Positions 34,400-37,024 of a stretch of DNA of 64,000 bases are shown in pieces; within the stretch, counting starts at the first letter, position 1, and each line of letters starts with the position of its first letter. The DNA is from a bacterium (GTDB lineage Bacteria; JACRDZ01; JAQUKH01). Location of the stretch: positions 548 through 64,547 of the forward strand of contig JBFMCF010000054.1 in assembly GCA_040754625.1 (NCBI GenBank), read 5' to 3'. Both the position numbers and the translations under genes were made by a program. The notes beneath the pieces were generated by a model. It ran no database searches. It had not been told where the DNA came from and saw nothing but the letters and a program-made list of their open reading frames with translations.

Positions 34400-34636
34400 T
34401 TAATCCAAATCAGCCACTTTTGTAACTTGCCTGTATGTTATATCTTTGAATTCATTAAAATGCGCGTATCCGCACTTAATTTTTCTTTTTTCGCTGACTT
34501 TCAATTCCTGCCCTTCCGACTTTGTTTCCGCGACAAAGTAAATCGTTTTCTCATTCTTTTTGACTAAAGCCCAGTCCGGGTTATAATCTCCGATAGGTGT
34601 TTTAATTTTAAACCAGAATGGAAGTTTAAAATAAAA
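34400..34636 (-). pseudogene. C-terminal PD-ExK nuclease segment of the Type III Res-like gene, in frame with 34637..37024 but separated from it by a TAA
   Basis: Same-frame translation directly after the TAA at 34637-34639 gives [78 protein letters not shown]. This has a Res-type PD...E-x-K motif. There is no start codon of its own. Confidence 0.6.
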
Positions 34637-37024
34637 TTAAATATCGTCCCTGTTTTCACATTCCTTCGCGAATTCGTACTCCACATTGGAATCGAGCGGC
34701 ATAAGCGCGCTATAAATGGTTTTACCCTGGTTGGATATATTAAAAGTCAGGCCGTTCACATGGATATCATATTCTTCAAACAACCGCATTTCATACTCCC
34801 TGTTCCCTATTTTTTCATATTTGATACCGTCAATCATTAGCCCGGAAAGAACATCTTTGACGGCTGTAACAGTGTTATCGAGAAAAAGCTGCGGATTAAT
34901 GAACACATCGTTTATTCTGCCTGAGTCTTTTAGTATTTCCAGAATTGTCGCCCGCGTGAGTTCCGTGCGTTCCTGTATATAAAAAAGAATATCGGGAATT
35001 TGAAATATGCTGTCAATTGAAGTTGTATAAGAAGCTCTTATTTCAGCAATAATGCCGGATTCGTCGAATTCCAAAGCCGTTTTTGTGGTTTTGATTACGG
35101 CTTTTTTAATCAAAGGCATATTCCGCACTGCTTCTGCGGCTTTTTGTATCAGATCAAAGGTCTGGTATTCCACTTTGTAATTTGTCTGATATTTTATTTT
35201 ATCCCAGATTTGTTTAAATTTCTCATCCAGCTCAAAACCTTTGCGATACCTGACTGTTTTTCTTTTTTCCTTGTTCTTAATCCTGCCCGCGAAGGATACC
35301 CCGCAATCCTCTTCGATTTCTGTCTGAAGCTGTTTGGCAAACTCCTCATACGATTCATTGGCGATAACAGTCAATCTGTTCACACCGGGATCCTGGACAC
35401 GATTCCCTTCCTGATTTACGGAAAGCCTCAGGCCTCGCCCGATTTCCTGTCTTTTTTTAAGCTCGGATTTTGTTTCATTTAGCGTGCATATCTGAAACAC
35501 ATTCGGATTATCCCATCCCTCCCGCAACGCCGAATGGCTGAAAATAAAGCGGAGCGGCTCATTGCTGTCAAGAAGCTGTTCCTTGTTTTTCATTATCAGC
35601 TTAAAGGTATCGTCATCATCCAGGGTATTGCCTTTCGTGTCTTTCCATTTTCCTTTTTTATCCTTCGAAAAATAACCATTATGGACCTCTTCCGCTTTAA
35701 ATGGAAGTAACCCTTTATATGCCGATTTTTCTGAAATTTCATCAAATATTTTTTCGAACCATAACGCGAATTTACCTTTAACCGCGTTCCCGGCGGCATC
35801 ATAACTTCGATAATTCGCCACCCTGTCGATAAAAAACAACGACAAAACTTTTATCCCTTTATCTTTTAGTTTTCTCTCCTTTAAAAAATGCTCTTCCACC
35901 GCCTTTCCTATCTGTATTTTCATTACCTCATCGGAAAATCCGCCGAACGTATTGCCGATAAATAAGTTTTCGCCGTTTGAAAGCTCAATAAATCCCTCCG
36001 CGGCATCTATACCGTTAATAATGTATCCATTTTTGTATATTTCCCGTTTGCCGGATAACTCATATAAATCATCGCCGACTCTTGCGGTGACTGACTTTCT
36101 TTTTACCCCGTCTTTTGTATTAATATCTATTTTTATTTTTGCCGAGGTGCTGGTTTTGGCAGTATTTACCTTTTCGAGACAAATAAAACCCCCGTTAAAA
36201 TCATTTTCTGTGACAACGGAATCCACCTCAATTTGTTTCACGAGCCCGAGATCATACGCCTTGACCGGATCGAGACTATAAACCATGTTGTAGCGATTTG
36301 TATGCGTGGCGGAATAACGCAGGGTACACAGGGGATTCAAATTTCCCACCGCTTTTTTCCTGATATCAGTCTCCATGTTTTGCGGTTCATCGACAATAAC
36401 AATCGGCATTGTTGCCTGGATGAATTCAACAGGTTTTTTCCCTGTAAGCTTATCGTTGGGTTTATTGATTATATTTTCGTCTTTGGCAAAAGAATCAATA
36501 TTGATGACCAATATCTGAATATTATTGCTGACGGCAAAATTTCTCAGATTTGAGACCCGTTTTGAATCGTATATCTGAAAATTCACGGGTATCTTATCGT
36601 AAAGGTTCTGGAAATGATCAAATGTGATTTCAAGATTTTTAAGGACACCCTCGCGAATGGCAACGGATGGGACAACTATAACGAATTTTTTAAAACCATA
36701 CTTTTTATTAAGTTCGTAAATCGTGCGCAGATACACATAAGTTTTGCCCGTCCCCGTTTCCATCTCAACGGAAAAATTCAATCCGTCCAATTTCTCGGTT
36801 ATGGCAATTTCATTTAACCTTTGTATATCCCTTAAATTTTTGAAAATCTGTTCTTCGCTGATAGAAAGCCTGTTGCCAATGCCATCTTCGTTCAAAAACA
36901 AACTTTCATTTTGAAATGAAAATCCGAAATCACCCTGATTTAACGGCTGGCCCTCGAATATATTGACAATGGAGTTTATGGCATCGTGCTGGTATTGCTG
37001 GTTTGGGTCGAAATGAAGTTTCAT
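34637..37024 (-). CDS. Type III restriction enzyme Res-subunit-like SF2 helicase (795 aa up to an in-frame TAA)
   Basis: N-terminus MKLHFDPNQQYQHDAINSIV... and motif I ...METGTGKTY..., DEPQN (DEAH-like) and helicase C motifs are typical of EcoP15I-type Res. There is no mod gene in the operon. Confidence 0.8.
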   Translation of the reverse strand: MKLHFDPNQQYQHDAINSIVNIFEGQPLNQGDFGFSFQNESLFLNEDGIGNRLSISEEQIFKNLRDIQRLNEIAITEKLDGLNFSVEMETGTGKTYVYLRTIYELNKKYGFKKFVIVVPSVAIREGVLKNLEITFDHFQNLYDKIPVNFQIYDSKRVSNLRNFAVSNNIQILVINIDSFAKDENIINKPNDKLTGKKPVEFIQATMPIVIVDEPQNMETDIRKKAVGNLNPLCTLRYSATHTNRYNMVYSLDPVKAYDLGLVKQIEVDSVVTENDFNGGFICLEKVNTAKTSTSAKIKIDINTKDGVKRKSVTARVGDDLYELSGKREIYKNGYIINGIDAAEGFIELSNGENLFIGNTFGGFSDEVMKIQIGKAVEEHFLKERKLKDKGIKVLSLFFIDRVANYRSYDAAGNAVKGKFALWFEKIFDEISEKSAYKGLLPFKAEEVHNGYFSKDKKGKWKDTKGNTLDDDDTFKLIMKNKEQLLDSNEPLRFIFSHSALREGWDNPNVFQICTLNETKSELKKRQEIGRGLRLSVNQEGNRVQDPGVNRLTVIANESYEEFAKQLQTEIEEDCGVSFAGRIKNKEKRKTVRYRKGFELDEKFKQIWDKIKYQTNYKVEYQTFDLIQKAAEAVRNMPLIKKAVIKTTKTALEFDESGIIAEIRASYTTSIDSIFQIPDILFYIQERTELTRATILEILKDSGRINDVFINPQLFLDNTVTAVKDVLSGLMIDGIKYEKIGNREYEMRLFEEYDIHVNGLTFNISNQGKTIYSALMPLDSNVEYEFAKECENRDDI

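What the first reader, a model, noticed from the sequence alone, without database searches (positions are those of the whole stretch)
34400..37024. In-frame TAA separates the Res helicase body from its PD-ExK nuclease motif
The Res reading frame continues without frameshift through a TAA at 34637-34639 (...[31 protein letters not shown]...[11 protein letters not shown]...) until a second stop at 34400.

The 78 codons after the TAA contain the PD...E-x-K catalytic motif expected at a Type III Res C-terminus. They have no start codon of their own.

Either the gene is a fresh nonsense pseudogene, which would give a translocase-only and restriction-dead product, or this is a sequencing error, or there is low-level readthrough. 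Other genes here terminate with TAA, so recoding is unlikely.
Basis: seen in the sequence. Interest (0 to 1): 0.7.

Follow-up and report, generated by a model that had tools for sequence, protein, structure and literature searches.

The report
Nonsense-mutated res in a decayed restriction system
A single G-to-T change has turned a conserved glutamate codon of a Type III restriction enzyme gene into a stop just before its DNA-cutting motif. The partner methylase gene next to it is also almost entirely deleted, so this is an ordinary dying restriction system and not a recoding signal.

Summary
The res ORF (37024→34637, minus strand, 795 codons) ends at TAA 34637-34639. The same frame then runs 78 more codons to TAA 34400-34402.

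- **The tail is real coding sequence.** Those 78 codons match the Pfam RE_endonuc domain (E = 2e-25) and hold the PD…ExK residues D817, E833 and K835. These align with D898, E916 and K918 of EcoP15I Res.
- **Orthologues are intact.** 119 of the 120 best homologues are about 874 aa long. The aligned codon is Glu in at least 90% of them (GAA or GAG in the three relatives read as DNA). The window differs by one G→T change.
- **TAA is the normal stop here.** It ends 37 of 48 long ORFs, and the context is TAAT. There is no RNA structure, no conserved stop and no usable downstream start codon.
- **New finding: the system is dead anyway.** Only the last ~59 codons of the cognate mod gene survive (38546-38725). 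Res has no DNA-recognition partner in this locus.
- **Embedded cargo is intact.** An embedded candidate defence pair, PDC-M24A/B, sits undamaged between the mod remnant and res.
- **Parallel cases exist.** Two of 83 related loci carry single nonsense codons at other positions in res. One of them also has a truncated mod.

Verdict: a recent nonsense pseudogene in a decaying Type III restriction-modification system. An assembly or consensus error cannot be excluded without reads. Low interest.

The parts
34637..37024 (-). The res 5' part as it now reads: a 795-codon ORF for the SF2 helicase/translocase body, ending at the premature TAA.
   Evidence: It matches Pfam ResIII (E = 2.8e-15) and DEAD and PADLOC REase_III PDLC03647 (E = 5.5e-276). 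It aligns to EcoP15I Res chain 4ZCF_C residues 45-585 (E = 5e-69). The helicase motifs METGTGKT, DEPQN and QEIGRGLR are intact and fall in invariant alignment columns.
34637..34639 (-). The premature TAA stop at codon 796, followed by T.
   Evidence: The aligned column is Glu in at least 90% of 19 orthologues. The codon is GAA in L001, GAG in L002 and GAA in L084, so the stop is a single G→T transversion.
34400..34636 (-). The res 3' tail: 78 codons in the same frame plus the original TAA stop. This is the remainder of the RE_endonuc (PD-(D/E)xK) domain.
   Evidence: It matches PF19778 at positions 30-107 of 108 (E = 2.1e-25). It is 86-87% identical to the nearest orthologues, against 88% for the part before the stop. 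There is no canonical in-frame start before codon 841.
34520..34579 (-). The catalytic motif P816-D817 ... E833-T-K835. D817 is at 34574-34576, E833 at 34526-34528 and K835 at 34520-34522.
   Evidence: In the profile alignment to EcoP15I Res, the motif aligns with ...SPD(898)F...IIE(916)TK(918). All three residues are invariant in the 20-sequence alignment.
38546..38725 (-). The mod remnant: only the last ~59 codons and the stop of the Type III methyltransferase gene.
   Evidence: By tblastn it is 82% identical to residues 551-610 of the L001 Mod and 79% identical to residues 654-710 of the L003 Mod. No other Mod similarity exists in the 64 kb window. By blastn it is 90% identical to L001 mod over 160 nt, and the similarity ends at 38715. 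Upstream the frame is full of stops.
38044..38565 (-). Embedded cargo gene 1, a DUF6978 / PDC-M24A protein of 173 aa. It is intact.
   Evidence: It matches Pfam PF22398 (E = 5.7e-34) and PADLOC PDC-M24A at positions 3-145 of 146 (E = 2.6e-46).
37298..38047 (-). Embedded cargo gene 2, a DUF1828/DUF1829 / PDC-M24B protein of 249 aa. It is intact.
   Evidence: It matches Pfam PF08861 and PF08862 and PADLOC PDC-M24B at positions 5-255 of 255 (E = 1.6e-86). Nearly all listed homologues are 248-256 aa long.
37024..37254 (-). A 76-codon ORF of unknown function. Its TAA stop overlaps the res ATG (TAATG).
   Evidence: It appears in the ORF list and the sequence. It has no significant Pfam or PADLOC hit and no counterpart in the 83 related loci.
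38828..39202 (-). Left flank: a comEA-like helix-hairpin-helix gene.
   Evidence: It matches Pfam HHH_3 (E = 2.7e-23).
32868..34391 (-). Right flank: comEC. It starts 8 nt after the original res stop.
   Evidence: It matches Pfam Competence (E = 7.5e-61) and DUF4131. The same res-comEC-aroE-T2SSE order is found in relative L002.

Best explanation
[quoted passage not shown] The change is GAA (Glu796) to TAA.

Translation stops at codon 796, inside the C-terminal PD-(D/E)xK endonuclease domain. Any product is therefore a 795-aa helicase/translocase body that lacks D817, E833 and K835 and cannot cut DNA.

The partner mod gene supplies DNA recognition and self-protection. It has independently lost all but its last ~59 codons, so the locus encodes no functional restriction enzyme at all.

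With one half of the system gone, the other half is no longer under selection and is free to be lost. The order of the two lesions is not known.

The candidate defence pair PDC-M24A/B, embedded between mod and res, remains intact and has simply outlived its host system.

- Shown here: the stop, its one-step origin, the intact orthologues, the domain interruption and the mod truncation.
- Inferred: that the stop is in the organism and not only in the assembly, that the truncated protein is functionless, and the link between the two lesions.
For: 1. 119 of the 120 best homologues are 871-892 aa long and carry PF19778. The only 795-aa entry is this MAG's own record.
2. The aligned column is Glu in at least 90% of orthologues. 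The codon is GAA, GAG and GAA in L001, L002 and L084, against TAA here, with the flanking codons conserved.
The stop therefore cuts inside a domain.
4. The catalytic D, E and K lie after the stop and align to the PD...ExK residues of EcoP15I Res. PMC3333885 places the PD..D/EXK active site in the C-terminal domain of Res and assigns DNA recognition to Mod.
5. Only a 59-codon 3' remnant of mod remains, and nothing else in the window resembles Mod.
6. L002 is a syntenic relative with about 80% nucleotide identity and the same res-comEC-aroE-T2SSE order. It has an intact res, so the gene was inherited intact in this lineage.
7. The mutation is recent.
   - dN/dS is 0.06-0.07 before the stop and 0.13 after it.
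   - The window has 6 private changes at otherwise invariant columns, against 2-15 in the orthologues.
   - The branch-specific nonsynonymous-to-synonymous ratio for the whole gene is not raised (p = 0.41).
8. There is a hint that the tail has begun to drift. Changes specific to the window branch are 6 synonymous and 5 nonsynonymous in the tail, against 23 and 1 on the two sister branches (Fisher p = 0.007).
9. Parallel decay occurs elsewhere. L010 has TAG at codon 601 plus a 5'-truncated mod, and L042 has TAA at codon 26.
10. The rest of the window has 92% ORF coverage and only eight ORF-free gaps over 200 nt. Two of those gaps are the res tail and the mod remnant, and the other six were not examined. 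The assembly therefore shows no sign of being generally error-ridden.
Against: - The sequence is a metagenome-assembled contig (the source record is labelled 'MAG... [bacterium]'). No reads or same-species contigs could be found. A consensus error or a minority allele cannot be excluded.
- The tail is still 86-87% identical to orthologues and has no second lesion. That is also what an error or an intact gene would look like.
- The drift signal in the tail rests on 11 codon changes, in a three-taxon parsimony count at near-saturated synonymous divergence.
- A second compatible mod elsewhere in the genome was not excluded. Only 64 kb were seen.
Confidence: 0.8

Rival explanations
1. The TAA is an assembly or consensus artefact, or a minority allele picked up in a MAG consensus. 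The organism's real res would be intact with GAA at codon 796.
For: - The contig is a MAG.
- The lesion is a single-base substitution in an A/T-rich run (ATT TAA TTT TAT TTT).
- The tail is as conserved as the rest of the gene.
- There is no independent sequence of the same species to confirm it.
Against: - The neighbouring mod gene is also destroyed, by a ~1.6 kb deletion that cannot be a base-call error. An inactive res is therefore biologically expected.
- No other obviously broken gene was seen in the 64 kb, which has 92% ORF coverage.
- Nonsynonymous changes specific to this branch are enriched in the tail (p = 0.007). This is a small sample.
- Similar single nonsense codons occur in 2 of 83 other loci.
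Confidence: 0.12
2. The truncated 795-aa Res is made and retained as a nuclease-free ATPase/translocase with a new role, for example working with the embedded PDC-M24 pair.
For: - The helicase motifs are intact and the pre-stop part shows strong purifying selection overall (dN/dS 0.06-0.07).
- The isolated translocase domain of EcoP15I Res keeps ATPase and DNA-binding activity (PMC3333885).
- The 76-codon ORF and PDC-M24A/B lie directly upstream on the same strand.
Against: - The purifying-selection signal is dominated by the long history before the stop.
- No orthologue of this length exists among the 120 best hits or the 83 loci.
- The stop falls inside the nuclease fold, not at the linker.
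- PDC-M24 pairs also occur on their own, with no Type III res nearby in the 14.75-kb locus examined (L085/L086).
Confidence: 0.05
3. Programmed readthrough or recoding of the TAA yields some full-length Res.
For: The frame is preserved and the downstream domain is intact.
Against: - TAA terminates 37 of 48 long ORFs in the window. The tetranucleotide is TAAT, which I know to be a strong termination context in bacteria.
- The stop is not conserved in any orthologue.
- The RNA just before and for about 100 nt after the stop folds no better than shuffled sequence (z = -0.64).
- To my knowledge no TAA sense reassignment or programmed TAA readthrough is established in bacteria.
- Full-length Res would still lack Mod.
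Confidence: 0.02

Closest known systems
Type III restriction endonuclease Res subunit (EcoP15I/EcoP1I type; Pfam ResIII + RE_endonuc; PADLOC REase_III PDLC03647)
   Same: - It has an SF2 helicase body followed by a helical spacer and a C-terminal PD...ExK nuclease domain.
- The profile alignment to EcoP15I Res (4ZCF_C) covers both parts, and the catalytic D, E and K align.
- It matches PADLOC REase_III with E = 5.5e-276.
- In relatives it sits downstream of an N6_N4_Mtase mod gene on the same strand.
   Different: - The ORF is cut at codon 796 inside the nuclease domain.
- The cognate mod is reduced to 59 codons.
- In this family, mod and res are usually separated by inserted cargo genes, unlike the adjacent mod-res arrangement of EcoP15I.
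Inactivated or orphaned R-M genes (nonsense- or frameshift-mutated res, truncated mod) seen across bacterial genomes
   Same: - There is a single disabling point mutation in an otherwise conserved restriction gene.
- The partner gene is lost at the same time.
- Comparable lesions occur at other positions in L010 and L042.
   Different: Nothing essential differs. The stop is not in a repeat tract, so this is not phase variation.
Defence genes embedded within multi-gene defence systems ('guilt-by-embedding', Payne et al. 2024, bioRxiv 10.1101/2024.01.29.577857), including the PDC-M24 candidate system
   Same: PDC-M24A/B lie between the mod remnant and res, on the same strand. They are also embedded in L007 and L087.
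   Different: That study analysed Hma, BREX, DISARM and Type I R-M systems. Here the host frame is a Type III system, and it is a dead one.

Membership tests
Type III R-M Res subunit | N-terminal SF2 helicase/ATPase body with motifs I, II and VI | tested here: met
   Pfam ResIII (E = 2.8e-15) and DEAD (E = 3.4e-09) match. The body aligns to EcoP15I Res residues 45-585 with E = 5e-69. GTGKT, DEPQ and QEIGRGLR are invariant.
Type III R-M Res subunit | C-terminal PD-(D/E)xK endonuclease domain in the same polypeptide | tested here: not met
   The domain sequence is present (PF19778, E = 2e-25). It is cut off from the ORF by TAA at codon 796, and D817, E833 and K835 lie after the stop. By descent this is a family member, but it is not an intact one.
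Type III R-M Res subunit | A cognate Mod (N6_N4 methyltransferase) encoded in the same operon | tested here: not met
   Only a 59-codon C-terminal remnant survives at 38546-38725, and there is no other Mod similarity in the window. Relatives have full mod genes of 606-709 aa.
Type III R-M Res subunit | ATP-dependent cleavage of unmethylated DNA when in complex with Mod | not testable with these tools
   This needs biochemistry.
Programmed stop-codon readthrough / recoding site | The stop codon is conserved at the same position in orthologues | tested here: not met
   Glu occupies the column in at least 90% of aligned orthologues. None of the 83 related loci has a stop here.
Programmed stop-codon readthrough / recoding site | A leaky stop context and/or a stimulatory downstream RNA structure | tested here: not met
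   The context is TAAT, and TAA ends 77% of long ORFs. The fold z-score is -0.64.
Naturally split Res (separate helicase and nuclease genes) | The downstream part has its own start codon, and orthologues end at the same point | tested here: not met
   The first in-frame canonical start is TTG at codon 841, after the catalytic residues. The orthologues are single ~874-aa proteins.
PDC-M24 candidate defence system (embedded cargo) | An adjacent DUF6978 (M24A) and DUF1828/1829 (M24B) gene pair | tested here: met
   PADLOC matches PDC-M24A (E = 2.6e-46) and PDC-M24B (E = 1.6e-86), both covering nearly the full profile. The same pair occurs in L007 and L085/86. In L087 only the DUF1828/1829 gene was seen. 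Defence activity was not tested.

The most novel reading that the evidence does not exclude
The nuclease-less 795-aa Res is a retained, expressed translocase that has been co-opted after loss of Mod. It might act as a motor or sensor for the embedded PDC-M24 pair, and the conserved tail would mark a very recent transition or occasional readthrough.
Probability: 0.04. Interest if true: 0.55.

Novelty: already known. Interest (0 to 1): 0.12.

Why it matters
It matters little beyond correct annotation.

- The res ORF should be flagged as a pseudogene. The deposited record calls it a 'DEAD/DEAH box helicase family protein'.
- The locus should not be counted as an active Type III restriction-modification system in defence-system censuses.
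- It is a tidy example of both halves of a restriction-modification system decaying while an embedded candidate defence cassette stays intact.
- The side observation may be more useful. In this widespread res family, mod and res are usually separated by variable cargo. This extends 'guilt-by-embedding' to Type III systems.

Tried and rejected
1. **Exact-protein look-up.** I looked up the 795-aa product to find other assemblies with the same truncation. Nothing was on record.
2. **Metagenome scans across the stop site.** Two DNA-pattern scans looked for same-species contigs or recurrent stops. The first found nothing. The degenerate pattern found one distant relative, L084, at 73% nucleotide identity and with GAA. 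A read-level or population check was therefore impossible.
3. **Homologue search with PDC-M24B.** This was meant to find a closer relative of this genome. The best hit outside the window's own record is 76% identical.
4. **Genome-collection survey.** The source record says only 'MAG: bacterium'.
5. **Recoding.** Rejected on stop-codon usage, lack of conservation of the stop and lack of RNA structure.
6. **Independent nuclease gene.** Rejected because there is no usable start codon and the domain begins upstream of the stop.
7. **Long-standing relaxed selection on the whole gene.** Tested and not supported (p = 0.41).
8. **A hidden full-length or frameshifted mod upstream of the remnant.** Three-frame translation of 38540-39310 shows only a comEA-like gene and stop-rich spacer.
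Full report
**Observation**

On the minus strand an ATG at 37024 opens a 795-codon ORF that ends ...ECENRDDI-TAA at 34637-34639. The same frame then reads [43 protein letters not shown]... for 78 more codons, up to TAA at 34400-34402.

The post-stop segment is real coding sequence:
- On its own it matches Pfam PF19778 (RE_endonuc) at positions 30-107 of 108 with E = 2.1e-25.
- It also matches positions 895-982 of 989 of the PADLOC REase_III model.
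- With the stop replaced by Glu, the match becomes one unbroken hit over profile positions 2-107 (117 bits, E = 4e-34). The TAA therefore sits about 29 residues into the nuclease domain, not at a domain boundary.
- The first in-frame ATG, GTG or TTG after the stop is TTG at codon 841, downstream of the catalytic residues. The tail cannot be translated independently into a nuclease.

**What the gene is**

The pre-stop part matches Pfam ResIII and DEAD and PADLOC REase_III (E = 5.5e-276). A profile of 20 orthologues finds one solved structure, EcoP15I Res (4ZCF chain C). The helicase body aligns (query 52-585 to chain 45-585, E = 5e-69), and so does the C-terminal segment.

In that alignment the window's P816-D817, E833 and K835 fall on ...SPD(898)F...IIE(916)TK(918) of EcoP15I. 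PMC3333885 describes EcoP15I Res as follows:
- an N-terminal translocase domain (residues 40-705);
- a C-terminal endonuclease domain (residues 729-966) carrying the PD..D/EXK active site;
- sequence recognition supplied by Mod;
- ATPase and DNA binding retained by the isolated translocase domain.

The truncated product would thus keep the motor and lose the whole active site.

**Origin of the stop**

Of the 120 best database homologues, 119 are 871-892 aa long and carry PF19778. The only 795-aa entry is 100% identical and comes from a 65-kb NCBI MAG contig, evidently this sequence's own record.

In an alignment with 19 orthologues (76-88% identity) the column at the stop is Glu in at least 90% of sequences, within an almost invariant block [21 protein letters not shown]. 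At the DNA level the codon is GAA in L001, GAG in L002 and GAA in L084. The window has TAA with conserved flanking codons. The change is one G→T transversion.

**Recoding is excluded as far as sequence can show**

- TAA ends 37 of 48 non-overlapping ORFs of 150 aa or more in the window. The stop here is TAAT.
- The RNA just before and for about 100 nt after the stop folds no better than shuffled controls (z = -0.64).
- No orthologue has a stop at this position.

**The wider locus changes the picture**

In relatives, res lies downstream of an N6_N4_Mtase mod gene of 606-709 aa. In the window, tblastn with two such Mod proteins finds only one short match at 38546-38725. It covers the last ~59 codons plus the stop and is 82% and 79% identical to the two queries. 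Nucleotide similarity to L001 mod (90% over 160 nt) ends at 38715. Upstream there is about 100 nt of stop-rich spacer and then a comEA-like helix-hairpin-helix gene at 38828-39202.

Some 550 codons of mod have therefore been deleted. Mod provides DNA recognition for the Type III complex, so this locus cannot encode a working restriction enzyme whether or not res is repaired.

Between the mod remnant and res lie three ORFs on the same strand:
- PDC-M24A (DUF6978, 38044-38565);
- PDC-M24B (DUF1828/1829, 37298-38047);
- an unassigned 76-codon ORF (37024-37254) whose stop overlaps the res ATG.

The two PDC-M24 genes match their PADLOC profiles end to end, so the embedded cargo is intact.

**Age and reality of the mutation**

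L002 (GCA_043809805.1) has about 80% nucleotide identity and the same res-comEC-aroE-T2SSE order as the window, with an intact res. The gene was therefore inherited intact in this lineage.

| Measure | Result |
|---|---|
| Pairwise dN/dS, before the stop | 0.06-0.07 |
| Pairwise dN/dS, after the stop (vs L001) | 0.13 |
| Private substitutions at otherwise invariant columns | 6 in the window (including the stop), 2-15 in other orthologues |
| Branch-specific changes, whole gene (synonymous/nonsynonymous) | window 112/31; L001 88/19; L002 93/20 (p = 0.41) |
| Branch-specific changes, 78-codon tail only (synonymous/nonsynonymous) | window 6/5; sister branches together 23/1 (Fisher p = 0.007) |

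The stop is therefore recent relative to the divergence from these relatives, where dS is about 0.9. The tail result is a small-sample hint that the tail has begun to drift. If real, it argues against a pure sequencing error.

The window as a whole has 92% ORF coverage and only eight ORF-free gaps over 200 nt. Two of those gaps are exactly the res tail and the mod remnant, and the other six were not examined. The assembly does not look generally error-prone.

**Parallel cases**

I surveyed 83 related loci (plus L001-L003). All have res as a single open frame except two:
- L010 has TAG at codon 601 (consensus Glu), and only residues ~403-709 of its Mod can be found.
- L042 has TAA at codon 26 (consensus Gln).

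Sporadic nonsense codons at different positions, once again together with a truncated mod, are the signature of ordinary pseudogenisation, not of a conserved signal.

**What could not be settled**

No reads and no same-species contigs were available. A consensus error or a minority allele in the MAG remains possible. I put this at about 0.12. A second compatible mod elsewhere in the genome was not excluded either.

**Comparison with known systems and verdict**

By descent this is a Type III Res of the EcoP15I kind. It fails two defining features of a functional member: the nuclease is not in the same polypeptide, and no cognate Mod is present. Disabled restriction genes and orphaned halves of restriction-modification systems are commonplace, so the finding belongs to an already known kind.

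The best explanation is a real, recent nonsense mutation in a decaying Type III system whose mod is already or also gone, with confidence 0.8. The interest is low.

**Side observation**

In 46 of 68 loci of this res family where both genes could be placed, at least 1 kb of other genes separates mod from res. Only 13 of the 68 have the two genes adjacent. The cargo includes Bro-N, AAA plus peptidase S8, an MmeI-like enzyme, AAA_15 plus DUF4276, and PDC-M24. This fits the 'embedded defence' idea of Payne et al. (10.1101/2024.01.29.577857). That work analysed Hma, BREX, DISARM and Type I systems, not Type III.

Noticed in passing
window 38546-38725 (-): Only the last ~59 codons of the Type III mod gene survive. 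About 550 codons have been deleted, and the breakpoint lies about 100 nt downstream of a comEA-like gene. The R-M island sits between comEA (38828-39202) and comEC (32868-34391).
   Followed up: yes
window 37298-38565 (-); also L007:6100-7361, L087:7001-7753, L085/L086:6519-7750: An intact PDC-M24A/B pair (DUF6978 plus DUF1828/1829), a candidate defence system, is embedded between the mod remnant and res. The pair is also embedded in the Type III locus L007, and its DUF1828/1829 gene in L087. The pair occurs free-standing in an Ignavibacteriales MAG (L085/L086).
   Followed up: partly
window 37024-37254 (-): A 76-codon ORF with no family match has a stop that overlaps the res start codon (TAATG). 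L087 has an analogous 105-aa ORF overlapping its res start. The function is unknown.
   Followed up: partly
related loci L001-L083: In this widespread res family (76-88% identical across Poribacteria, Planctomycetes, Cloacimonadota, Deltaproteobacteria, Bacteroidetes and archaea among the sequences aligned), mod and res are separated by at least 1 kb of variable cargo in 46 of 68 loci. They are adjacent in only 13. The mod-res interval looks like a hotspot for embedded defence genes in a Type III system.
   Followed up: partly
L010:7659-10280 and L042:10001-12637: Two other genomes carry a single in-frame stop in the orthologous res: TAG at codon 601 in L010 and TAA at codon 26 in L042. L010 also retains only the C-terminal ~300 residues of Mod.
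   Followed up: partly
L002:3090-3105 compared with window 34388-34402: The syntenic relative's res has lost the normal stop. It reads ...DLDHFVK* where the window reads ...DLD*FVK*, which extends the protein by 4 residues and makes it overlap the comEC start.
   Followed up: no
L011:6732-6875 and 7393-10014: A Spirochaetia MAG has a duplicated copy of the first ~49 codons of res about 500 nt upstream of the full gene.
   Followed up: no
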